From positions 13,898 to 77,897 of IMG/VR virus record IMGVR_UViG_3300032007_000065: a stretch of 64,000 bases of DNA; one strand, 5' to 3'. The notes under the pieces are model-generated. The model saw only the letters and a program-made list of their open reading frames with translations, made no database searches and was not told where the DNA came from. Positions 10,495 to 57,638 of this stretch are shown here, piece after piece; within the stretch, counting starts at the first letter, position 1, and every line of letters begins with the position of its first letter. This DNA comes from a virus (taxonomy: Duplodnaviria > Caudoviricetes). Both the position numbers and the translations under genes were made by a program.

Positions 10495-10508
10495 AAAACA
10501 TGGAGAAA

Positions 10509-10581
10509 CATACCGAAGTTCTAGTGGTGGAACGCAAGTCCAGAAAACTTGAGGTTGTCGGTTCGAGTCCGGCCGGTGCGG
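10509..10581 (+). tRNA. aberrant tRNA or tRNA-like RNA (nominal anticodon AGA)
   Basis: D stem GTTC/GAAC, anticodon stem CAAGT/ACTTG with loop CCAGAAA, T arm GTCGG-TTCGAGT-CCGGC, acceptor CATACCG/CGGTGCG with one mismatch. C at position 33, short variable loop, no encoded CCA. Confidence 0.65.
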
Positions 10582-10638
10582 GGCGCAAGCTCCGCGCTAT
10601 GTTTTCTTGCTAGTGAATCTTCTTTTTTGTTGCTGGGG

Positions 10639-10696: not shown

Positions 10697-11071
10697 ATGA
10701 GCAATGCACTTCTGGCGATGTCCGGCCCAGCTTTCGGCAATATGGATGTTACTGTCTACGATGTCTACACAGTTACATCTAGCGAGAATCTTGTATCATC
10801 TAGCAACGCCATCACGATTTTCTCCAATCGCTCATGGACCTGGGCGTTTGTGGATATGCAGAATGCGGGTATAATGATAGCGAGACCATTTGCTATCAAG
10901 AATTCAGTCAATTTTCAAGACAAGCAAATTTATGGGTTGCAGGGCAATAGTACTACTAGTTTCAATGTAACACTGATTGGCACATCTACTAGTCTACGGG
11001 GCGGGATGATGCCATATACCAATGCCCCATATTACTTCTGGACAATCACCGTCTATGTTCCATCTGCATAA
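10697..11071 (+). CDS. small Ser/Thr-rich beta-strand protein (putative receptor-binding/adhesin module), cassette A1
   Basis: AT-rich atypical codon usage, no SD; N-terminus MSNALLA similar to the 12646 ORF. Confidence 0.6.
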   Translation: MSNALLAMSGPAFGNMDVTVYDVYTVTSSENLVSSSNAITIFSNRSWTWAFVDMQNAGIMIARPFAIKNSVNFQDKQIYGLQGNSTTSFNVTLIGTSTSLRGGMMPYTNAPYYFWTITVYVPSA

Positions 11072-11630: not shown

Positions 11631-12557
11631 TTACTGCAGTTTCTTTTTGAGTGTGTCGATCTCGGTGTTGAGCTCGGCGATGTATCGATTGATGTCGTAG
11701 AGACTCCTGGACAGATTCGCAGTCTTGGCTTGGAGCAATTCAATGGATGCCATGACTTCAGCTTTATCGATGACATCCTGGTTCGGCTCTTCGATAGGCT
11801 CGTCGAATGTCAGGACGGCATCGATGATGCGAGTGGTGCTCGTCAGCTTGCTGATGCCGAGATCTGGGCACTTGAAGATGAAGGATCCGCCACCATCGAG
11901 TTTGATGATGTCTCGGAACCCAGCTCCTTTGATCTGGTTGAAGAACTCCATACCGTAGATGAGGTTACCGGTCTTCGATTGGTAGTACATGACGTAGACC
12001 ATTGACGGGTCATCTTTGACACCGACGAAGACATGGTATGCCGCTCTGACGGTGTCCTTGGCCCAGCCCTGAGGTAGCACGTAGTTGTAGAACGACACGT
12101 CGTCACCATTCCGAAGCACCGGCACACCGGAGACGGCATAGTCGGCATTTTCGTGCCCAGTGAGGTATTCGGTGTCTTTGATGGTCGCCTTCCCGTTCTC
12201 GATGAAGAGAGTCGACGGCGCATGGCCGTAGCAGGGATTCATGTACTCCCATTTACCACTGTCGAAGGTGAACTTCCGGCCGTCGTTGGAGATCTTGCCG
12301 CGCTCGTGCATGTAATGCTCTTCGATGTCGTGGAGTTTGAAGCCGGGATAGATGTCGCATTTCAGATGGCCCGCCGGAAGACGGAACTCGATACCTTTCT
12401 CTTCGTAGTATCCGAAGAAGTTGGCATTGCAGAAGTTGCCGTCTCGAGTGACGTCGCCGCCGGTCCGCTTCTCACGATCGAGCCAGACGACCTTCAGCAT
12501 GGAGGCCGGCATCTCGACAATGGTGACGTCGTTGTACATGTAAGTCTTCTTCAGCAT
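11631..12557 (-). CDS. phosphodiester glycosidase (NAGPA-like) family protein with C-terminal coiled coil
   Basis: IIKLDGGGS motif; GAAAGGAG SD before ATG 12557. Confidence 0.7.
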   Translation of the reverse strand: MLKKTYMYNDVTIVEMPASMLKVVWLDREKRTGGDVTRDGNFCNANFFGYYEEKGIEFRLPAGHLKCDIYPGFKLHDIEEHYMHERGKISNDGRKFTFDSGKWEYMNPCYGHAPSTLFIENGKATIKDTEYLTGHENADYAVSGVPVLRNGDDVSFYNYVLPQGWAKDTVRAAYHVFVGVKDDPSMVYVMYYQSKTGNLIYGMEFFNQIKGAGFRDIIKLDGGGSFIFKCPDLGISKLTSTTRIIDAVLTFDEPIEEPNQDVIDKAEVMASIELLQAKTANLSRSLYDINRYIAELNTEIDTLKKKLQ

Positions 12558-12984: not shown

Positions 12985-13365
12985 ATGGCAGAATCTCTCA
13001 TCTCGGCAAGCATCTCGGCCGGAGGATCTAATGCGAATATTTCTCTCATCGCATCTGGCTCATTTTATGTATATACCAGATCACAAACGATTTCTTTTTC
13101 TAATGGCTTATTTGCAGTAATATTTAGCAACCATGCACGCAATGGCTGGAATAGTAACGAAGCGATGGAACCGGGATATGCCGTGGTATTTGCTGGAGAC
13201 ACTGGTATATCGACACCACCATATCGTTATGCCAATGGTACGGCTGTTGATACTAGCGCTAAGGCATCCATGACCACTAGTACATTGACAATCGGTGCTG
13301 TCATAACTGGAAATTGGCAAGAAACGTATTATCAAAAGTCTGGTACATACCGAATTGTCGGATGA
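12985..13365 (+). CDS. small Ser/Thr/Ala-rich protein, cassette B2
   Basis: 126 aa, AT-rich, no SD; starts MAESL. Confidence 0.6.
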   Translation: MAESLISASISAGGSNANISLIASGSFYVYTRSQTISFSNGLFAVIFSNHARNGWNSNEAMEPGYAVVFAGDTGISTPPYRYANGTAVDTSAKASMTTSTLTIGAVITGNWQETYYQKSGTYRIVG

Positions 13366-48220: not shown

Positions 48221-50407
48221 TCAGTGGGCCTCACCGGAATCGGTTCTGCCGATCGTCGTGGTGTAGTCGGGAGTGTGGTGCTGGTATCCGGTGCCGGTCG
48301 ACTGGACCTCGGGTTCGATTGTTTGCAGTTCCCCGGTGATCCAGTTCTTGAACGGCTCGGCGATCTGTCGCATGAGACGGACAGCCAGGTCGTCCGGATG
48401 GGCGATGGCGTACTGCTCGACGGCATTGAAGATCGTCGACACCTGCTGGGTGGTGCCTCTGGCGTTGATGGCCTCCTGCTGACGAATGGCGGCAGCCTTG
48501 TCGTAGGCGCGGCTCACCGACAGGTACTGGTCCGACGTCAGGATCATGCCGAGAATCGACACGATGCCCTGGAGAATCTCGACGTCGGTGGCGACGGAGT
48601 TGCAGACGCTCGGGATGCGTCCGGTGCAACCCTCTTCCTTGACGATGTCGTAGCCAGTCCAGTAGCCGCGGTCCATGTAGTTCAGGATGACGGCCAGGAA
48701 CGGTTCCGACTCGTAGTCACTATAGTTGACAATGTGTAGACCGTCGGTCGTGTAGACGGGGCAGCGCCACATGGCCTTCTTGGAGTTCAGGATGCCGAGG
48801 GTGGTTCTCCAGAAGGCATTGTGGAAGACGCCGGCGACACTGCGCAGCATCCTTTGGTGTTCCGTCGTGTCGCCTTGGACGGTGAGCTCACCCATGACGT
48901 GGTGCATGGCCACGAGTGTGCCGAGGTTCATGCCGGCGACGACACCGGACTCGTAGGCGGAGCGACAGGCCCGGATGACGTCGTCGACGACGTCCATGTT
49001 GCAGGCGCGCTCCAGGTCGGAGACACCGCCGACGTGGATGACGCCAATGGTGCCGCGGAGCCGGTTGAGACGTTGAGACGCCTCCAGATAGTCCTTCATG
49101 AGGTCGGTGGGGCTCGATGCCGCCTTCTTCTTGGCGTCGTCGTAGTCCTTCTGGCACTGCTCCAGCAGAGCATTGTAGCGGACCCGATCCGTCGCATCGT
49201 CTTCGAGGTTGATGAACTTGCGACCGATGGTGACGTTGACAACCTCGCCGACGCAGGACTGCATCAGCTGCTGGGCCGTCGTGAACTGGTACTCGTCGAG
49301 TTTCGCAGCCGGGTCATTGATCTGCTCGTCGGCAGCCGCCGATGCGTTGTGGCGCAGCACCGTGAAGAGACGCACCTTGGTGGCATCGGTGATCGGCGTG
49401 TTGGCGATGACGGAGAAGTCGTGGAGAGCGTTGCGGGCGGCACTCCTCGTCAGTTCCGGCACCTGGAGAATCAGCATGCCCGGAATGGTGTTCGGGTACT
49501 TCTTCAGATGCTCGTTGACGGTGAGAGCGATCTGGCTCGAAATCAGATCATCGTAGTACGGCGCCATGATGATAATGGGCCGCCCGTTCTGGTTGGCGTA
49601 CTGGAGAATCGCCGAGATGAGCTCGCCGTGCTTCTGGTAGGTGACGTTGTGGTCGAAGATGACCATCATGTGCGGGTTGCCGTTGGAGCTGTAGTAGCCT
49701 TCGGCGGTGTTGCGGTAGCGCTCCGCCATGAGGAGAGAGGCGTCGATGCGGAAGCCGTTCTGGACCTCATGGGTGTAGCCAGTCTGGCCGCCGTCGCGAT
49801 CGACCATGATGTTCGGCTGACCGGTCTTCTTGTAGATGTCCTGGACAGCTCTGGCCAGTTCCTCATTGCCGTTCGACGACACGTATGCGACGTTGTAGAT
49901 GTCTTCGTAGGTCGGGTCTTCGTCGTCAGGATTCGGCACGACGTCGACGGCCATCTTCTGGAGCTCTTCGATGATGCGGTCGCGGACCTCCTGGAGGGAT
50001 CGGACGATGTCGGCCTGACGGGCGTTGCGGAGAACCGCGTCGCCTTCGAGAGCCTTCGTCAGCTCCTCCATGAAGTTGTCGGCAGTGACCATGGCAGTGG
50101 TGGTGCCGTCGCCTACTTTGTCGACAATGCGGAACGAGATGTTCTTCAGCATCGTGAAGATGGACTTGTGGGTCGGATCCTGGAACTCGAGACGGTTCAA
50201 CACCGTCCAACCGTCCTTGGTCGGATAGGTGAAGTGACCGTCATCGATGATGGTGGTGTGGGCGTAGGGACCGAGCGTCTTCGACACCACCTGGGCGGCG
50301 ATGTGCGAGATGGCCTTGATGGTCTCGTTGAACTCGTCGTGGTCGACGAGGTTCATGCCCATGCGGATTTGCTTCTCGAGATCGAAGATTTCGTTCTTGT
50401 CACTCAT
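48221..50407 (-). CDS. groEL: phage GroEL-like chaperonin (728 aa)
   Basis: VSKTLGP, TKDGWTVL, VGDGTTTA ATP-binding motif, IHVGG, GVVAG. Confidence 0.9.
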   Translation of the reverse strand: MSDKNEIFDLEKQIRMGMNLVDHDEFNETIKAISHIAAQVVSKTLGPYAHTTIIDDGHFTYPTKDGWTVLNRLEFQDPTHKSIFTMLKNISFRIVDKVGDGTTTAMVTADNFMEELTKALEGDAVLRNARQADIVRSLQEVRDRIIEELQKMAVDVVPNPDDEDPTYEDIYNVAYVSSNGNEELARAVQDIYKKTGQPNIMVDRDGGQTGYTHEVQNGFRIDASLLMAERYRNTAEGYYSSNGNPHMMVIFDHNVTYQKHGELISAILQYANQNGRPIIIMAPYYDDLISSQIALTVNEHLKKYPNTIPGMLILQVPELTRSAARNALHDFSVIANTPITDATKVRLFTVLRHNASAAADEQINDPAAKLDEYQFTTAQQLMQSCVGEVVNVTIGRKFINLEDDATDRVRYNALLEQCQKDYDDAKKKAASSPTDLMKDYLEASQRLNRLRGTIGVIHVGGVSDLERACNMDVVDDVIRACRSAYESGVVAGMNLGTLVAMHHVMGELTVQGDTTEHQRMLRSVAGVFHNAFWRTTLGILNSKKAMWRCPVYTTDGLHIVNYSDYESEPFLAVILNYMDRGYWTGYDIVKEEGCTGRIPSVCNSVATDVEILQGIVSILGMILTSDQYLSVSRAYDKAAAIRQQEAINARGTTQQVSTIFNAVEQYAIAHPDDLAVRLMRQIAEPFKNWITGELQTIEPEVQSTGTGYQHHTPDYTTTIGRTDSGEAH

Positions 50408-51225
50408 GGTTTCGAATCAGTCCTTTCGTTGGTGATGGGATCAATGGGTGTGAAGTACGGGTACATGTGGGCGACGACGCAGATGCGCTGCTCCTGGAGT
50501 TTCCGGAAGACGTCGTCGCCGACGTGGATGAAGTGACTCATCTGATTCTCCTTCGCCGGCAGAAGGTTGCCATAGCCTTCGACAACGACAATGTACTTGC
50601 CGACGAGACAGTCCCTGTTTCGTTCGACGACCTCTAGAACGTCGTCGCTGTTCGACAGGAACGCCGTCGTGATGTCGGGCAGTTCGAGAAGGACGTCCTT
50701 CGGGTCGTTCTCGAGACAGACGATCTTCTTGTCGACGGTGTCGGCTCCGAAGAGTGCCACCAGGTAGCTCTTCATTTCGTCGGTGAACTTCGGAGCCGTG
50801 ATGTAGATGTGCTTCACGAAGTCCTGGAGAGACAGCTGATGGAGAACCACTTCGAGTCTTGTGGTGTGGAGATAGTTCAGATGGAGCGGATACAGATACG
50901 TTTCGGCGTACTGTTTCAGCAGATCCTCCGACAGTTGTTTGTCGTTGTCCTTCAGCATCATGCGAAGGAACTCCCAGTGACGGTTGTACATGGACGACAT
51001 GGCGTAGCGGACGTCCTTCGACATCTTGACGAAGTCGTCGAGTGCCGGAAACAGCTTCGGAAGGAACGGCTCCGTCCTGGCAGCCGCCGCCAGATTGTGG
51101 AGGATCGACATGTTGGTGTTTTTGAGACAGCGATGGAATTCGACGAGGATGTACTCGTCGCGGTTGTCGGTGCCAATTGGCCGCAGCAGATCCGACGATA
51201 TGTCGGCTCTGTAGTCGTCCGGCAT
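50404..51225 (-). CDS. hypothetical protein
   Basis: 273 aa, overlaps the groEL start. Confidence 0.75.
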   Translation of the reverse strand: MPDDYRADISSDLLRPIGTDNRDEYILVEFHRCLKNTNMSILHNLAAAARTEPFLPKLFPALDDFVKMSKDVRYAMSSMYNRHWEFLRMMLKDNDKQLSEDLLKQYAETYLYPLHLNYLHTTRLEVVLHQLSLQDFVKHIYITAPKFTDEMKSYLVALFGADTVDKKIVCLENDPKDVLLELPDITTAFLSNSDDVLEVVERNRDCLVGKYIVVVEGYGNLLPAKENQMSHFIHVGDDVFRKLQEQRICVVAHMYPYFTPIDPITNERTDSKP

Positions 51226-51295: not shown

Positions 51296-52306
51296 TTAGG
51301 ATGCCATCAGTTCATCGAGCGACGTCAGCGGTTGAACCGGCGTCGTGGAACCGTGGCCGACCTGGGACTCGTTGACCTTGACGTCCTGCAACTGAACGCT
51401 GCCGATGGTCGGCGTCGACGGCCTGGTCAGGGCTGCGACTTCAGCGTTTGCAGGGAGATCAAAAGGGCTGTTTTCTCCGGCTCCGGTGAAGTTGTCGGAG
51501 ACGAACTGCTGGATGTTGGCCGGAGGCGCAGCGTAGCCGGGCGCAGTGGCGCCGCCGAACTGGCCGCCGCCGAATCCGCCGCCGTAGCCACCTCCGTAGC
51601 CGCCGTAGCCGCTGTCGGGACCGGAGCCACGGAACGAACCGAACTGCATGGCGTTGACGTTGAGCTTCTGGGCGATGCCACGGACATAGGATGCCGTCAT
51701 GTCGGTGATCCATGCGGAGGCGCGCTTGTTGCCGTGGCCGGCAGCTGCTGTCATGGCCTCACTGAAGCTGCGCAATGCTTCGACGACGACGAAGAGCTGG
51801 CCCTCGGCCGGGAAGACGGTGTAGGATCCGGTGTTCGGATTGTACTCGTCGATCATGGCGGTCTGCTCGAACATGAAGCTGTACTGCTCGGAGCAGACCT
51901 TGTCGGCAGCGGTGTTCATGAAGATGGTGAAGACCGCACGACCGCCGACGTAGGAGAAGCCGGCCAGATTGGTGCCCTCGCGATTCAGAGGCACGACGAC
52001 GTGGCCAATGTGATCCTTACCGGCTTCGATGTCCGGGAGGATCTTCTTCATGAAGCCGTCGTAGAGGGCGCGAGCCAGATGGGCCTTGAACGACGCCGTA
52101 TGGCCGAGCTCACGCGGCCAACGCGGACGCCCACCGTTCGGGTCCTGGACTCTGGGGATGATGGTCAGGAACATGGAGTCCCCGGCAAAGCCGATACGCA
52201 GCATGGTGCTGTCGGCAGAAAAGACGGCGAGGCCGCTCGTGTTGACTTCGTTGCCACGGGTGGAGGTGCCACCTGCAACGACGCCTTGCATACCAAATTC
52301 GGGCAT
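51296..52306 (-). CDS. hypothetical protein with Gly-rich low-complexity linker (possible ssDNA-binding protein)
   Basis: GAAAGGAG SD; beta-rich N-terminal domain, GGYGGGYGGGFGGGQFGG tract, short C-terminal LDELM motif. The SSB role is a guess. Confidence 0.6.
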   Translation of the reverse strand: MPEFGMQGVVAGGTSTRGNEVNTSGLAVFSADSTMLRIGFAGDSMFLTIIPRVQDPNGGRPRWPRELGHTASFKAHLARALYDGFMKKILPDIEAGKDHIGHVVVPLNREGTNLAGFSYVGGRAVFTIFMNTAADKVCSEQYSFMFEQTAMIDEYNPNTGSYTVFPAEGQLFVVVEALRSFSEAMTAAAGHGNKRASAWITDMTASYVRGIAQKLNVNAMQFGSFRGSGPDSGYGGYGGGYGGGFGGGQFGGATAPGYAAPPANIQQFVSDNFTGAGENSPFDLPANAEVAALTRPSTPTIGSVQLQDVKVNESQVGHGSTTPVQPLTSLDELMAS

Positions 52307-52423
52307 GGTATTGTGCTCCTTTCTAAAATCGATTAGTGCGGTTGTTAATGGTGTGAGATGCTTTCAAACGAACCGACTGACTGGAGGTACAACACCATGA
52401 GATGCGGTTGTGTTTTTCTACGC

Positions 52424-52458
52424 AAAAAGAAAGGAGTCCGGAGACTCTTTTCTCTTTC
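52424..52458 (-). terminator. terminator closing the pentamer array
   Basis: Minus strand AAAGAGTCTCCGGACTCCTTT followed by CTTTTT. Confidence 0.7.
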
Positions 52459-52599
52459 TCTCGACCGAAGTCGAGGCCATTGGGATGACAGGCATAGGGA
52501 TCGAAATGCGTCTCATTCCGACGTCATCGCCATGATGCTGCCCGACCTGGTAGTGGAGCACTATTCCACTACTCCACGAAACAGTGGAACGCTTTTCCA

Positions 52600-55500
52600 T
52601 CGGTTCGTGAAACTGTCCACTGGATTGCCCCGCCCAAGCTATGTGCAGCTATGCCCAACTTTGCCGACGCTGAACTTCACTGCACGGGACATTACCAATG
52701 CGGAATATAACCGCACAGGACTTTGCCGGTGTGGAGCTTAACTACACAGGGCTCTACTAACACGGACTCGTGTCGAAGTTTGGCCTGACACTGTTAAACC
52801 TTCCTTCGCCTCACCATCACTTCGCATTCCGAACATGACATACCTGTGCCGCAGCGAGACGATAACTCGCAAAACGTCTCTGGACTATGTCCAGCCGCCG
52901 CTTTGGCTCTGCTAGACTTCCTTCACCGCTGCTTCGGTTTCCGAACATTCATTCGCGCCATGTAATGTCATTGCCTAGCAATGCAATGCCATGACGAGAC
53001 GATGACGTGCGCAGCTCGTCTGGACTATGTCCCACCATCGCATTGGCTTTCGAGCAGGCATTGGAATGACATGCTATGCATCGCCGCAACAAGATCTGGC
53101 TTCTATAACGTGAATATGTCCTGCCGCAACGAGACTAAGCCGTTTATGACGTCACTACGTACTGCCACAACGAGACTAAACCCCGTATAATTCGACTGGA
53201 CTGTGCCATTGCGCGACTACACCAAGCTATGCCATTGCGCTACTGCACCTAGCCTGACGTTAATAAGGCTATGCCGTGGCAATACGGTGATGTGCTTGAC
53301 TCATCCGAACTGTGCCATTCCGCTACAGTCCACGCCTGACGTTAATATACCATACCGCAACGAGACTAAGATTGCTATGCCGTCAATAAGCCAAGCCTGA
53401 CGCTGATAGGCCATGCCTCAACGAAACTAAGTATGCTATACATATCCATGACGATTCAGGGTAATTCATTTCATTTCGCAGCCGGTGATTCGCAGTTCTG
53501 GACGATCCGTAATAGACAATGCCGTTACGTAGTCAGACGTTGCCCACAGCAGTATGCAATTCCTCGTATAGCCTGGACAATTCATTTCAATTCGTAGCCG
53601 GTGATTCGCTGTTCCAGACGATCCTTTGCCTGAACTTAAGAATGCTTTTCCACCCCCAAACTTCGCTAAGTAAAACTCGGCAATGGGACACCGTTACGTC
53701 GTACACTGTGTCTCAGATTGCCATTGCGTTGATTCGCTACAGGTTCCTTCGCAGTTCCGTTGGTTCGCCACACATTCTTCACCATGGCGTAGCATTCTTC
53801 ACAATCGACACCATAGTTTGCCATCGCATTTGTGACGAGATGTAGCGTGTCTGAGATATGGGCCGCCGAGACATTGCGTTGCCTAATTTAACTCTGACCA
53901 GCATCGGACTACTTTCTTCGCCAAAACTTGGCAATACCGAACACTGCCATGACCCCAGATGGCTATGATGTGCTTCACTCTTCCGTCACCTCGCTGGACG
54001 ATGATATGCTTTGCCTTTCCATGGCCATACTCGGTATAGTAGTACATTGCCATGGCCCCACGCGACGATGATGTGCTTCTCCATGACAGAACTTGATTCA
54101 ACTACACGTTTCAATGCCATTGAGTAACTGAGGTATGCGTTGAGCCGCTTCACATTGCCATTGGGTAACTTAGGTGTACACTGGGTCACTATGGCTCGCC
54201 ATTGAGTAACTGAGGTATGCATTGGGCCGCTTCACCTCGTCATTGGGTAACTTAGATGACTTGGACGCGCACTAAGTCACTTTAGTCTGTCATCGCCGCA
54301 TTACACAATGACTCACTTTAGTCTGCCATCGCCGCATTACACAATGACTCACCTTTGCCATAGAATGGTACGCTATGACTCGCCATTGCCATACTTCATG
54401 AGACCTTACCTTGCCATTACTCGACTAGACGGGAATGAAAACCAGACGCTATCATGTATTGCGGTTCCGCTACGGAACGAAACCTCATCGCACCTGGACT
54501 AACGAAGACAGGCCCTCACGAGATGTTGAGCCGTGTAACCAAACAGCGCCAAAACTCTGTCCCATATGACTGAACATCGGTCAACCAAAACATTGCTGCA
54601 TTGCTCAGGACACATCAGTGCCTAAACGAAATGGCACCGCGAGTAACTCTAGCCTACCTATACCAAATGGCACTGCGGCTGACTCTAGCCTACCCATACG
54701 ACATGACGCATTGAATTACTCTAGCCTACCCTGCCCAATACGACACGACACATTGAATTACTTTAGCATACCTTGCCTATACGTTACAGTATGGCGCAGC
54801 AAGTGACTTTAGCCTGCCCTTACGACATGGCACATCGAATAACTTAAGCATGCCTTGCCTATACGAAACTGCACAGCGAGCGACCTCAGCCTACCGTTAC
54901 GGCACTCGATGGCGCCTCGCCTCACCTCACCGTTGTGTCACTATGCAAATCCAGACTCTGCCATTACAATATAGCACATCGTCTGGCTTCACTTCGCCGT
55001 TGTGTTACGCCACTTGGTCTCGTTGCGCTTCACCATTGCTTACACATTGCGAGTCCTTACTTTGCCCCGCCGTTGCTCTACCGCGCAAGTCCTTGCCTTA
55101 CCATTACAACACGCCACTCGAGTATGCCCGACCAGGTTTTACCATAGCAACAGTCGACGATGTCTGACCGCACTTACCTCACCTATGCAGCACTAAACAA
55201 TGGCCCGCCTCGCCCAGCCGACACACAGGACCGGATCACGCGAATGAGCAAAACTTTGCTCTGCCTCAACAGTACTGGACATTGAGTTGCCCTGCCACAG
55301 CATCGTTGCACTGGGCAATGATTAACCTTACTTTGCCAATACACCGAACTGCTTAACCCAGCGTCACAGCACTAAGCCATTGACTAGCCTAGCATCGCCG
55401 ATGCACTGTCATTCTGCACATAGCCATTAGGATACACGGCGTTAACTGGAAGCACCATTCCTAACTCTTCCATTGTCTGACTTTGAAATACAAAACGCTC

Positions 55501-56319
55501 GACATAGAGAGTTTCACTATGTGATGCCGCAGCCTCACGAGGCTAGACGTTATTGGACCATCCCTCGCCGATACTAGAGGCGACGTTACAAAGCGATGCC
55601 TCTCACTTCAGATAGCCTCACGTTCTGCGCTTGTCCATAACGCAACTTCGAATTGAGCTTCCGTACATGACCATACCGTTACCCTGGTTGACTCAGCTAA
55701 TCCGAAACTTCACTTCACTTTTCCAGAAAGGGCATAGCTATTCCGTCACCGTAAATGACTCACAAGACCGCACTCCACTCTTCCAGACTTAGCCGAAGCA
55801 TAGAATAGATTGGCCCCGTTTCACTTCGCCAATACTGCATCTTTCATGACCATACCTTCACCGCATACAACTAAGCCCACAGCAGCGACTCGCTTTCCCG
55901 GCAGCGCATATCGACACCGGTGCTGCACGAAGCGCCATTTTACGCAGTAATGCGTCGCTATTCCCATGCCGAAGAAGATCCAGGCCGTAGATAGCCAACA
56001 CAGCTCGCCGGAGCGTAATACTGGACTTTAGCCGAAGCAGCTCTGGGTCATACCATAGATAGCCATCACATTGGCACACAAATGCTGAGCCATAGATAGC
56101 CACCACAGGTTAGCATTGTACATCGTTAGACCGTAGACAGCCACCGCAGACCAGCATGGTACTATACATCACTGAGCCGTAGATAGCCGCAGCGAATCAG
56201 CATAGGACACAGTTAGGCCGTAGATAACCGATACGTCCAAAAGCAAAGCACCACAATGCCGTTGATAGCCAACGCTTAGCGACGTACGACGCATCAATGA
56301 CTTACGATGCCAGCGCGTT
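52600..56319 (-). repeat. non-coding array of 5-nt-phased units (NRY-NN pentamers; units mostly 5n+1 nt), putative guide-RNA array (VIPR-like)
   Basis: No credible CDS over ~3.7 kb. Example minus-strand units: GGC AA AGT CC TGT GC GGT TA TAT TC CGC AT T / GGT AA TGT CC CGT GC AGT GA AGT TC AGC GT C / GGC AA AGT TG GGC AT AGC TG CAC AT AGC TT G (52727-52635). Boundary spacings of 31, 36, 41 and 46 nt recur. Confidence 0.85.
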
Positions 56320-56482
56320 CTGGACCTGACGGTCCAGGACCAAGCATCCCTTTCTTTACCGATACTTAGGGCTTACTGCCGCCCGAGACTTCGGGAGAGC
56401 GGCTGCCTATTGCTACGGATTCAAACGAAGCTCGTTGACCATCCAAGGTCAATTTACGGGACGGATCTAAGGCCCCGTATCG
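56320..56482 (-). ncRNA. structured leader of the array (four hairpins)
   Basis: Inverted repeats at 56320-56337, 56378-56403, 56435-56452 and 56455-56479. Confidence 0.55.
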
Positions 56483-56511
56483 AAAAAGAAAGGAACCCGA
56501 AGGTTCCTTTC
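56483..56511 (-). terminator. terminator downstream of the RAMP gene
   Basis: GAAAGGAACC-TTCG-GGTTCCTTTC followed by TTTTT; same hairpin at 57897-57927. Confidence 0.8.
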
Positions 56512-56588: not shown

Positions 56589-57638
56589 TCACTCCTCGCC
56601 CTCTGCTTTCTTCTTGGGGCGACCGCGCTTCTTCGGCGCTTCAGTGGCTCCGTCGTCGGAGTCGTCGGCCTTCTTGGCGCCCTTCGCCTTCTTCTCGGCG
56701 GCCGCTGCCTTCTTGGGTGCGAAGCTGTCGAAGGCGTCGCCGAACTTGGTGATGTCGGGCACAATCTTATTGATTCTGCCGATGATCTCCTTGTCGGTGG
56801 CCGTCAGCTGATCCTCTTCGAGATCGTCGTAGGGGACGCCGTCGCGGTTGCACAATGTCCACTCAAGTGTGCCCTTGCCGCCGCCTCTCCATTGTAACAT
56901 GCCCATCCACTCTTTGTAGTCGAGCGTCTCGATGCATGCTTTGAGAGAATTCTCGTTGAGCAGGCGGATGCCGAAGTAGAATTCCGTGCCAGCCGGCACG
57001 ATCTCCGATGTTGCCAGAGCGGTGCGCGGGCCCTTGGCGGTATCGGCACGGAGCGGGCGGGACAGCGTCCGCAGGTTGCCATGGTCATCGTAACTGGTGA
57101 TCTCTTCTCCCATCATGTTGGTGAAGGTCTCGGGGATAAAGAGTGGGATTTTGCGATTTGTCACGAACCAGGTTCCGTCAACCACCTTTTTGTGGGCGGT
57201 GATGCTGCTCGCTGCATATGTACCACCCTTGGCGGTGTCGGCGCGGTTCAGCATGCCGATGGACTCCTTGAAGGAGCCGCGCCACTGATAGTCATAGAGG
57301 AACGGCAGGTTGACGATGTTGCAGCCTTCGGGCACGACGTCGACTTCGGGGTCATAGTACTTGCCGTCGTCGGTGACGGCGAAGACCGCACGCGGGAAGA
57401 TGGTCATCTGGATGTCTTCGAGCTCCTGGTCGTTGCCGATGGCAGTATTGACGGCCAGCTCGTTTGCTTTGGCCTCCTCTTCAATGCCGAGGGGATCGGG
57501 GTTCTTGGATGCGATGAACTCCCTGTGGATGTCGGGGTTGTTGGGCTGCGTGCCCAACATCATGTTGGTGGTGCGGCATCTGACGTAGAAGAGCAGGCCG
57601 CTGCTGATAAGGGACTTTCTCTGTGAACTCCAACTCAT
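56589..57638 (-). CDS. stand-alone Cas7/RAMP-like protein (Vipr-like) with C-terminal AT-hook
   Basis: N-terminal strand plus MMLGTQP, YDYQWRGSFKE, LSRPLRADTAKGPRTALATSEIVPAGTEFYFGIRLL, G-rich loop GMLQWRGGGKG; tail KKRGRPKK; GAGGT SD before ATG 57638. Confidence 0.8.
   Translation of the reverse strand: MSWSSQRKSLISSGLLFYVRCRTTNMMLGTQPNNPDIHREFIASKNPDPLGIEEEAKANELAVNTAIGNDQELEDIQMTIFPRAVFAVTDDGKYYDPEVDVVPEGCNIVNLPFLYDYQWRGSFKESIGMLNRADTAKGGTYAASSITAHKKVVDGTWFVTNRKIPLFIPETFTNMMGEEITSYDDHGNLRTLSRPLRADTAKGPRTALATSEIVPAGTEFYFGIRLLNENSLKACIETLDYKEWMGMLQWRGGGKGTLEWTLCNRDGVPYDDLEEDQLTATDKEIIGRINKIVPDITKFGDAFDSFAPKKAAAAEKKAKGAKKADDSDDGATEAPKKRGRPKKKAEGEE

What the first reader, a model, noticed from the sequence alone, without database searches (positions are those of the whole stretch)
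52600..56319. Array grammar: NRY-NN pentamers grouped into units of 5n+1 nt that start with GGY
Seen: in three consecutive 31-nt units (52635-52727) all 18 triplets end in a pyrimidine, 16 of 18 have a central G, and the other two have A. Boundary spacings elsewhere are 41,41,41 (54116-54239), 36 (54277-54352), 36,36,42,46,36,41 (54646-54883), 40,41,41,26,42,41,40,25,36 (53085-53417) and 37,41,46,41,41 (56053-56259). On the minus strand units begin GGC/GGT, and the extra single base resets the phase. Inference: each pentamer is one protomer footprint (5 nt versus 6 nt for classical Cas7), so units would load 5-9 subunits. The junction (often AT/AY-GGY) may be a processing site. Because triplet position 1 varies, the code may use three variable bases per pentamer, unlike a strict GGY/NN code. 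At about 38-40 nt per unit the array would hold roughly 90-100 guides (rough estimate).
Basis: partly seen in the sequence, partly recalled or inferred. Interest (0 to 1): 0.9.

Follow-up and report, generated by a model that had tools for sequence, protein, structure and literature searches.

The report
Phage VIPR guide-RNA array, staggered type
The 3.8-kb non-coding stretch is a very long guide-RNA array of a VIPR system (a phage-encoded relative of CRISPR described in 2026) in a rumen jumbo phage; its five-base grammar is real but largely already published, and the idea of a three-base code is not supported.

Summary
On the minus strand, 52478-56320 consists of N-G-Y-N-N pentamers grouped into units of 5n+1 nt (26-46 nt, about 100 units). 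Autocorrelation peaks at lags 5, 31, 36 and 41 reach z = 12-14. The extra base at each unit junction is G, so units begin GGY.

The array lies directly downstream of, and co-oriented with, a gene for a Cas7-like RAMP protein. The same gene-plus-array pairing and grammar recur in every relative examined, while array content is hypervariable.

This matches VIPR systems (Vipr protein plus vrRNA; bioRxiv 2026). Those papers already report one protomer per 5-nt repeat, "YNNNG" variant repeats and tail-less "staggered" arrays. This scan had already flagged the same stretch as VIPR-like.

His three-variable-base code is not supported. The extra variable base (N1) has flat composition, evolves about 1.5 times faster than N4/N5 between strains, and does not match the one candidate target found, which was for a relative's guide. 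No target was found for the window's own guides, and RNA ends could not be tested.

Possibly new here: kilobase-scale arrays in jumbo phages, loss of both G1-contacting residues in this Vipr clade, and a covarying structured RNA element heading the array.

The parts
56589..57638 (-). vipr-like gene: stand-alone Cas7-like RAMP protein of 349 aa (P0272; the longer GTG ORF runs to 57710). It carries a C-terminal Lys-rich tail with a PKKRGRPKK motif.
   Evidence: AF2 model of the homolog P0002 (pLDDT 84) matches Csm3 and type VII Cas7 chains at Foldseek E 2e-6. The G-loop aligns to Csm4 and Cas7. The family has 5863 members and no Pfam domain. The tail motif is conserved in the jumbo-phage clade.
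56488..56511 (-). hairpin plus T-run (intrinsic-terminator-like) just after the vipr stop codon
   Evidence: also read directly
56362..56486 (-). conserved structured RNA element (three helices, invariant loops GAUCC and UUGGAU, invariant 3' GUAAGNCC) heading the array
   Evidence: In the RNAalifold consensus, 16 of 20 pairs carry compensatory changes across 7 copies. The covariance model finds an untrained copy at E 2e-25, and there are five copies inside the L009 array. Folding z = -3.5. No Rfam match at E <= 1.
52478..56320 (-). vrRNA array: about 100 abutting units of the form G + (G-Y-N-N-N)n with n = 5-9. It has no repeat-spacer structure and no per-unit tail.
   Evidence: It has no ORF longer than 130 aa. 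GC is 0.50 against 0.58 in the flanks, and the minus strand is G-rich.
52420..52453 (-). hairpin plus T-run closing the array transcription unit
51296..52306 (-). conserved downstream neighbour (336 aa, no family). It is syntenic in L007, L009, L088, L089 and L092; a role as a VIPR accessory gene is not shown.

Best explanation
The region is the guide-RNA (vrRNA) array of a VIPR system carried by a roughly 240-kb rumen jumbo phage.

Shown by sequence and comparison:
- A Cas7-like RAMP gene is followed on the same strand by thousands of bases of N-G-Y-N-N pentamers.
- The pentamers are punctuated every 5-9 repeats by one extra G, so that each unit starts GGY.
- This grammar is kept in every relative examined, while array content turns over completely.
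- Strains differ by whole units and whole pentamers.

Inferred from the published SUSP1 system:
- The array is transcribed, and Vipr protomers polymerise on it, one per pentamer, each holding G2 and Y3.
- N4 and N5 are presented to read double-stranded DNA of competing mobile elements two bases at a time, skipping every third base. Binding silences transcription.

My own inference:
- The +1 G breaks the 5-nt register, so filaments of 5-9 protomers end there. The single long transcript is thereby parsed, and then trimmed or cut, into about 100 tail-less guides.
- N1 is a non-reading spacer base. It became free in this clade because both residues that read G1 in SUSP1 Vipr (H17, D177) are replaced (T, Q).
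For: Grammar and its significance.

RAMP fold of the adjacent protein.

The same gene-plus-array pairing and the same 5n+1 grammar occur in L002 (34-39% identical Vipr), L004, L005, L007, L008, L009 and L010. In L006 an array lies upstream of the gene and the contig ends soon after it.

Arrays of phages whose Vipr proteins are 82% identical share essentially no sequence. Even strains with Vipr at least 90% identical (L089, L090) have unrelated arrays.

Strain variants show 41- and 42-nt unit indels and 5-nt indels. At Y3, 81% of substitutions are C<->T.

Published VIPR features match: pentamer repeats, one protomer per repeat, YNNNG variants, staggered 1-nt-overlapping arrays and non-canonical motifs such as WGT/NN.

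The G-loop motif G-x-G-Q-W-R aligns with SUSP1 G-x-G-D177-W178-R179. T17 aligns with H17 and is at least 90% conserved; Q, W and R are invariant in 39 family members.

One guide of L002 (10 pentamers) matches 20/20 N4N5 positions, in frame with the skip on the wobble base. The target is a metallophosphoesterase gene of two phage lineages that are 59% identical in that protein.

N1 evolves faster than N4 and N5.
Against: - No RNA ends, strand or protein binding were observed. The one RNA run gives only contigs, at a depth similar to vipr.
- No convincing target was found for any of the window's own guides.
- The L002 target is a single independent event, with a chance expectation of about 0.05-0.15 hits. 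No other L002 guide hits those phages.
- Sequence-profile similarity to the type II Vipr family is weak (hhalign E 0.0075, probability 5%).
- I could not see the preprint's supplementary figures or type table, so placement of this clade among the seven types is unverified.
- A terminator-like hairpin lies between vipr and the array, so co-transcription is uncertain.
- Guides of 5-6 pentamers would specify only 10-12 bases under the NN rule.
Confidence: 0.85

Rival explanations
1. It is a VIPR-type array, but in this clade all three variable bases (N4, N5, N1) pair with the target. Only G-Y is flipped out, and the guide reads a contiguous target.
For: N1 shows no G preference. Both G1-reading residues of SUSP1 Vipr are replaced in this family. 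Units of only 5-6 pentamers are common and would specify just 10-12 bases under the NN rule. One window guide has a 24/27 contiguous match to a widespread gut element.
Against: N1 is the least constrained base between strains: 0.197 substitutions per site against 0.135 and 0.136 (p about 0.002). Its composition is flat. There is no stop-codon avoidance or other coupling between N1 and the neighbouring N4N5: 95 observed against 105 expected, and 111 against 118. In the L002 candidate target N1 matches 1-2 of 10 skipped bases while N4N5 match 20/20. The 24/27 match is one independent hit among about 20 examined, and its skipped base falls on codon position 2.
Confidence: 0.1
2. It is a DNA-level element, not an RNA array. 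It would be a half-helical-turn phased array (about 5.2 bp) of binding sites for a DNA-binding protein, for example the AT-hook-like tail of the neighbouring protein, serving as a centromere, an origin or a packaging/architectural region.
For: The mean period of 5.16-5.2 bp is close to half a helical turn. The adjacent protein carries a PKKRGRPKK motif.
Against: The signal is a strict 5 with a discrete +1 G, not a smooth 5.2. It is strand-specific (G then Y on the gene's strand) and bounded by terminator-like hairpins. Small-Vipr relatives lack the basic tail but have the same arrays. Array content is hypervariable while the grammar is fixed. The neighbouring protein has an RNA-binding RAMP fold.
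Confidence: 0.03
3. It is a decaying or selfish tandem repeat with no function. The periodicity would be a by-product of replication slippage of a 5-nt or roughly 36-41-nt unit.
For: Local sub-families of similar units and whole-unit indels show growth by duplication.
Against: Tandem Repeats Finder sees only short local arrays. The grammar persists where unit sequences are unrelated. It is conserved beside the same gene across proteins only 34% identical. Substitutions at Y3 are mostly transitions (81%), which keep the pyrimidine.
Confidence: 0.02

Closest known systems
VIPR systems, type II (Escherichia phage SUSP1, P. fulva prophage): Vipr + vrRNA; bioRxiv 10.64898/2026.04.26.720920 and .720927
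   Same: Both have a stand-alone minimal RAMP protein with RRM core, thumb and G-loop, encoded by a phage. Both have a co-oriented adjacent array of 5-nt repeats with fixed G and Y and variable dinucleotides. The G-loop W and R that hold G2 and Y3 are conserved. Content is hypervariable. One candidate target obeys the 1-nt-skip, wobble-aligned rule.
   Different: Here the repeat is N-G-Y-N-N, so the first G is not conserved, and H17 and D177 of SUSP1 Vipr are T and Q. Units have 5-9 repeats (SUSP1: 9-16), no 3' pseudoknot tail, and abut directly with a +1 G. There are about 100 units in 3.8 kb, against 4 vrRNAs in SUSP1. No vap gene is recognised. The protein has inserts and a basic C-terminal tail. 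Profile similarity to the type II family is only E 0.0075.
Staggered VIPR arrays and alternative repeats (YNNNG, NNNGG, NNNNG) in the same preprint (Fig. S18 legend, Methods), and non-canonical motifs such as WGT/NN in bioRxiv 10.64898/2026.10.21.760802
   Same: [quoted passage not shown] Pentamers are degenerate at the first position of the fixed triplet.
   Different: I could read only legends and methods, not the figures or the type table. Whether this rumen jumbo-phage clade, its kilobase-scale arrays and its structured leader element are among the published examples is unknown. The preprint says only the ribozyme-interspersed and single-vrRNA architectures were confirmed by sRNA-seq, so staggered arrays were not.
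Class 1 CRISPR backbone (Cas7 / Csm3 on crRNA)
   Same: The protein fold is the closest solved relative (Csm3, type VII Cas7). A thumb periodically interrupts the guide, and a helical multi-subunit filament forms on the RNA.
   Different: The period is 5 nt with 2 reading bases, not 6 nt with 5. The window region has no CRISPR repeats, no Cas6 or Cas5 handle and no adaptation genes.
TIGR-Tas arrays
   Same: Both are phage-associated tandem guide arrays without CRISPR-type repeats.
   Different: TIGR arrays have an 18-nt period (as cited) and a Nop-domain effector. Here the period is 5 and the effector is a RAMP.

Membership tests
VIPR (Vipr + vrRNA) | Effector is a minimal RAMP: RRM core, thumb hairpin, glycine-rich loop, small helical bundle | tested here: met
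   AF2 model of P0002 has pLDDT 84 and pTM 0.82. It has a beta-hairpin at 123-147, a G-loop at 179-189 and helices at 22-46. Foldseek top hits are Csm3 and type VII Cas7, E 2e-6 to 1e-4. The profile hits the Csm4 and Cas7 G-loop.
VIPR (Vipr + vrRNA) | Stand-alone in a viral genome, not next to CRISPR repeats or other cas genes | tested here: met
   The record is an IMG/VR viral contig. Neighbours are DNA polymerase, RNAP subunit, chaperonin and thymidylate synthase. No repeat-spacer array was found. Only the neighbouring genes were scanned, not every ORF in the window.
VIPR (Vipr + vrRNA) | Adjacent non-coding tract of tandem 5-nt repeats with fixed and hypervariable positions | tested here: met
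   conserved in 7 related loci; content hypervariable
VIPR (Vipr + vrRNA) | Canonical GGY/NN motif, with G1 read by H17 and D177 (SUSP1 numbering) | tested here: not met
   N1 is G in only 24% of internal repeats. The aligned residues are T and Q; Q is invariant and T at least 90% conserved in 39 members. The preprint lists YNNNG repeats as an accepted variant, so this marks a variant rather than an exclusion.
VIPR (Vipr + vrRNA) | G-loop W and R that hold G2 and Y3 | tested here: met
   The G-x-G-Q-W-R motif aligns with G-x-G-D-W-R of SUSP1 and its family. The alignment itself is weak: E 0.03 and 0.0075.
VIPR (Vipr + vrRNA) | Detectable sequence homology to published Vipr proteins | tested here: inconclusive
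   hhalign of A2 against the type II family A7 gives E 0.0075 and probability 5%, over the C-terminal half only. tblastn of P0002 does not reach SUSP1. The published seed X1U2U4 was not available to me.
VIPR (Vipr + vrRNA) | Guides read dsDNA by N4N5 with a 1-nt skip; targets lie in competing mobile elements | tested here: inconclusive
   One L002 guide matches 20/20, in frame, in a phage metallophosphoesterase gene, against a chance expectation of 0.05-0.15. No target was found for five window guides or two L007 guides.
VIPR (Vipr + vrRNA) | vrRNAs expressed and co-purifying with Vipr | not testable with these tools
   Only Logan contigs of one metatranscriptome cover parts of the array and vipr. 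They give no strand or end information.
VIPR type II architecture | Each vrRNA ends in a conserved roughly 40-nt tail with a pseudoknot; a vap gene lies beside vipr | tested here: not met
   Units abut directly. The only conserved structured element sits once, at the head of the array. Neighbours have no Pfam or PHROG family.
Class 1 CRISPR-Cas | Repeat-spacer array, 6-nt Cas7 periodicity, Cas5/Cas6/large subunit | tested here: not met
   Period is 5, not 6. No direct repeats of CRISPR type. No other cas-like genes among the neighbours.

The most novel reading that the evidence does not exclude
The single extra G every 5-9 pentamers may be a register-shift punctuation mark. It would let one kilobase-scale transcript be parsed into about 100 separate Vipr filaments without per-guide tails, ribozymes or a Cas6-like nuclease. 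The covarying structured element that heads the array (and each sub-array in L009) may be a new ribozyme or filament-nucleation module specific to jumbo-phage VIPR systems. A less likely further possibility is that N1 adds a third reading base in this clade.
Probability: 0.3. Interest if true: 0.6.

Novelty: new member of a known kind. Interest (0 to 1): 0.35.

Why it matters
VIPR is a months-old discovery, characterised experimentally mostly in one type (SUSP1 and P. fulva).

This locus shows that relatives of the system in rumen jumbo phages carry arrays 25 times larger, with about 100 guides. They use a tail-less 'staggered' layout that, per the preprint, has not been confirmed by RNA sequencing. 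The degenerate first repeat base goes together with loss of the two G1-reading residues.

That makes it a good natural test case for three questions:
- How are staggered arrays parsed?
- How short can a guide be?
- What do jumbo phages silence with a hundred guides?

The grammar itself, and the 5-nt footprint, are not new.

Tried and rejected
1. Rfam: no family in the region at gathering score or at E <= 1. No hammerhead or other known ribozyme was found.

2. Self-targeting: no guide of any array matches the window or the related loci better than shuffled guides do.

3. Targets of the window's guides:
- Four 9-pentamer guides searched in IMG/VR as NNx patterns gave 2, 1, 0 and 0 hits. That is the chance level (about 0.8 per pattern), and the hits shared no homologous context.
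- The guide at 53320 was also searched in metagenomes and gave 46 hits. Twenty-six were identical copies of one widespread gut element, with 6/9 third-base matches but the skip on codon position 2. The other 20 fell into about a dozen unrelated contexts.
- I treat that one hit as chance: roughly 1 in 100 per hit, with about 20 independent hits inspected.

4. Two guides of L007, the nearest relative:
- One gave no hit.
- The other gave one in-frame hit on two near-identical contigs, with 2/9 third-base matches. This is inconclusive.

5. Convergent targeting: no other L002 guide hits the complete 218-kb and 132-kb records that hold the L002 target. The 13/14 hit of the neighbouring guide lies at the null 95% level.

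6. Codon test: no significant stop-codon depletion was seen in N4N5N1 or N1N4N5 triplets pooled over six arrays.

7. RNA evidence: one metatranscriptome holds contigs over parts of the array and vipr. Contigs show neither strand nor ends, and DNA carry-over cannot be excluded.

8. Sigma-70 promoter scan: matches at chance level, all on the wrong strand.

9. Pfam and PHROGs on the flanking 336-aa and 273-aa proteins gave nothing usable, so no vap candidate could be named.

10. Solved VIPR structures were not among the PDB copies searched.
Full report
**What is there**

The window is part of a 77.9-kb IMG/VR viral contig that CheckV rates 32% complete. Genes around the finding are typical of jumbo phages: a divergent family-B DNA polymerase, an RNAP beta'-like subunit, a Cpn60-like protein and thymidylate synthase. 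Close relatives of the neighbouring protein sit on 220-300-kb contigs.

Between 52450 and 56590 there is no ORF above 130 aa. GC drops from about 0.58 to 0.50, and the minus strand is G-rich. Terminator-like hairpins lie at 56488-56511 and 52434-52447, both on the minus strand.

**The observation**

Match autocorrelation of 52600-56319 against shuffles gives z = 12 at lag 5 and z = 12-14 at lags 31, 36 and 41. There is nothing at lags 30, 35 or 40. The global spectrum therefore peaks at 5.2 rather than 5.0. The signal occurs nowhere else in the window.

A five-state HMM with slips recovers the minus-strand pentamer:

| Position | Content |
|---|---|
| N1 | flat composition |
| G2 | G 75% |
| Y3 | C+T 91% |
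| N4 | variable |
| N5 | variable |

It places 114 +1 slips, most often 36, 41, 31, 26 or 46 nt apart. An HMM-free regex check shows that the inserted base is G in 16/16 clean junctions here and 83/85 over five arrays. At ordinary 5-nt spacing the figure is about 30%.

**What it is**

The gene immediately upstream on the same strand is 56589-57638 (349 aa). It has no Pfam or PHROG family, but it belongs to a very large metagenomic family: 5863 hits, or 2070 clusters at 50% identity.

An AF2 model of the compact homolog P0002 (pLDDT 84) matches Csm3 and type VII Cas7 chains. Its G-loop aligns to Csm4 and Cas7.

In every relative I fetched, the gene sits next to a period-5 array:
- L002, L004, L005, L007, L008, L009 and L010 have the array directly downstream, co-oriented, with the same 5n+1 units. 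Length ranges from 0.6 to 5.1 kb.
- In L006 the array lies upstream and the contig ends soon after the gene.

Array content is not conserved. Phages whose proteins are 82% identical share essentially no array sequence, and some strains with proteins at least 90% identical have entirely different arrays.

That led me to three 2026 preprints:
- They describe Viral Interference Programmable Repeat systems: a phage-encoded ancestral RAMP (Vipr) plus vrRNAs of GGY/NN pentamers.
- One protomer binds each repeat.
- The NN dinucleotides read dsDNA while skipping every third base.
- There are seven types, with alternative repeats 'NNNGG, YNNNG and NNNNG'.

A fourth preprint reports non-canonical motifs such as WGT/NN. 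The locus fits this family, in its YNNNG, staggered form.

**How this clade differs from the characterised type II**

I retrieved SUSP1 (KT454805). Its vipr is L003:28474-29061(-), and its vrRNAs read GGYNN followed by a tail.

Profile alignment between the two families is weak: E 0.03 against the single SUSP1 sequence and E 0.0075 family against family. It does superimpose the G-loops. SUSP1 has G-x-G-D177-W178-R179, and this family has G-x-G-Q-W-R.

By cryo-EM, W178 and R179 hold G2 and Y3, and both are kept here. D177 and H17 read G1. Here they are Q (invariant) and T (at least 90% conserved). That fits the loss of G1 conservation inside units.

A full GGY occurs only at the first repeat of each unit. 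There are no per-unit tails. No vap gene could be named.

**Is N1 a third coding base?**

Four lines of evidence say probably not.

1. N1 has essentially no information content in any array.

2. N1 is not coupled to the neighbouring N4N5 in a codon-like way. Pooled over six arrays, stop triplets number 95 against 105 expected in the sense frame, and 111 against 118 in the antisense frame.

3. I fetched seven strain-level contigs, five of which align to the window's array. Distinct substitutions per site:

| Position | Substitutions per site |
|---|---|
| N1 | 0.197 |
| Y3 | 0.224 (81% C<->T) |
| N4 | 0.135 |
| N5 | 0.136 |
| G2 | 0.135 |

N1 against N4 and N5 gives chi-square p of about 0.002. 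N1 behaves like an unconstrained spacer, while N4 and N5 are constrained.

4. The 10-pentamer unit of L002, searched as an NNx pattern in IMG/VR, hits three contigs, all in one metallophosphoesterase gene. The hits are in frame with the skip on the wobble base. Two lineages are involved, 59% identical in that protein. N1 matches the skipped base only 1-2 times in 10.

The last point is a single independent event with a chance expectation of about 0.05-0.15. No other L002 guide hits those phages, so I treat it as suggestive only.

The window's own guides gave no convincing target. The shortness of many units (5-6 pentamers, or 10-12 reading bases) keeps the three-base idea alive at low probability.

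**Mechanism**

The sequence facts are shown. Filament formation on the RNA and DNA silencing are inferred from the SUSP1 work.

The role of the +1 G is my inference. It would break the 5-nt register, so cooperative filaments end there and the transcript is parsed into 5-9-protomer particles.

Strain variants differ by 41- and 42-nt units and by 5-nt blocks.

**Noticed on the way**

A roughly 125-nt element lies between the vipr terminator and the array, at 56362-56486(-). It is conserved in L007, L010 and L009, and L009 has five copies spread through its array.
- Sixteen of 20 predicted pairs show compensatory changes.
- Two loops are invariant and could pair with each other.
- It has no Rfam match.
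- It is absent from small-Vipr loci and from SUSP1.

It may be a processing ribozyme, a nucleation site or a promoter-leader module.

The jumbo-clade proteins also carry a conserved C-terminal PKKRGR(P/K)KK motif, repeated three times in P0277.

**Verdict**

It is, however, a member of a system published in 2026, and the grammar (5-nt footprint, degenerate first base, staggered units) is in that literature.

Noticed in passing
window 56362-56486 (-); L007:1318-1440; L010:2963-3095; L009:10086-10210, 10505-10631, 10807-10932, 12303-12432, 13177-13304: A conserved structured RNA element heads the array, and in L009 it recurs five times inside the array. It has three helices, with 16/20 pairs covarying. 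Loops GAUCC and UUGGAU are invariant and could form a 4-bp pseudoknot; the 3' GUAAGNCC is also invariant. It has no Rfam match and is absent from small-Vipr loci and from SUSP1. It may be a ribozyme, a nucleation site or a promoter-leader module.
   Followed up: partly
window 56589-56720 (-), C-terminus of the Vipr-like protein; alignment A3: The jumbo-phage clade of the protein carries a Lys/Ala/Glu-rich tail ending in a conserved PKKRGR(P/K)KK motif (AT-hook-like). The motif is repeated three times in P0277 and lies internally in P0311. Small-Vipr relatives lack it. It might replace a DNA-binding accessory protein.
   Followed up: partly
L089:7048-10854 and L090:1388-5194, compared with window 52478-56320: Strains whose Vipr protein falls in the same 90% cluster carry arrays of similar length that share no alignable sequence with the window's array. 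This implies wholesale array replacement between near-identical phages.
   Followed up: partly
L004:6583-7160: In this human-gut relative the second fixed position is relaxed (C 55%, A 25%). The repeat is therefore closer to G-N-N-N-N, still in clean 5n+1 units (26, 31, 36, 46).
   Followed up: no
window 51296-52306 (-) and 50404-51225 (-): Two genes without any family (336 and 273 aa) follow the array in conserved order before the Cpn60-like gene in the window, L007, L009, L089 and L092. Whether they are VIPR accessory genes or just core jumbo-phage genes is open.
   Followed up: partly
L002:11480-12240: The array of the L002 relative is followed by a terminator and then a cluster of sequences that, read by eye, look like tRNA genes. 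I did not run the tRNA finder on them.
   Followed up: no
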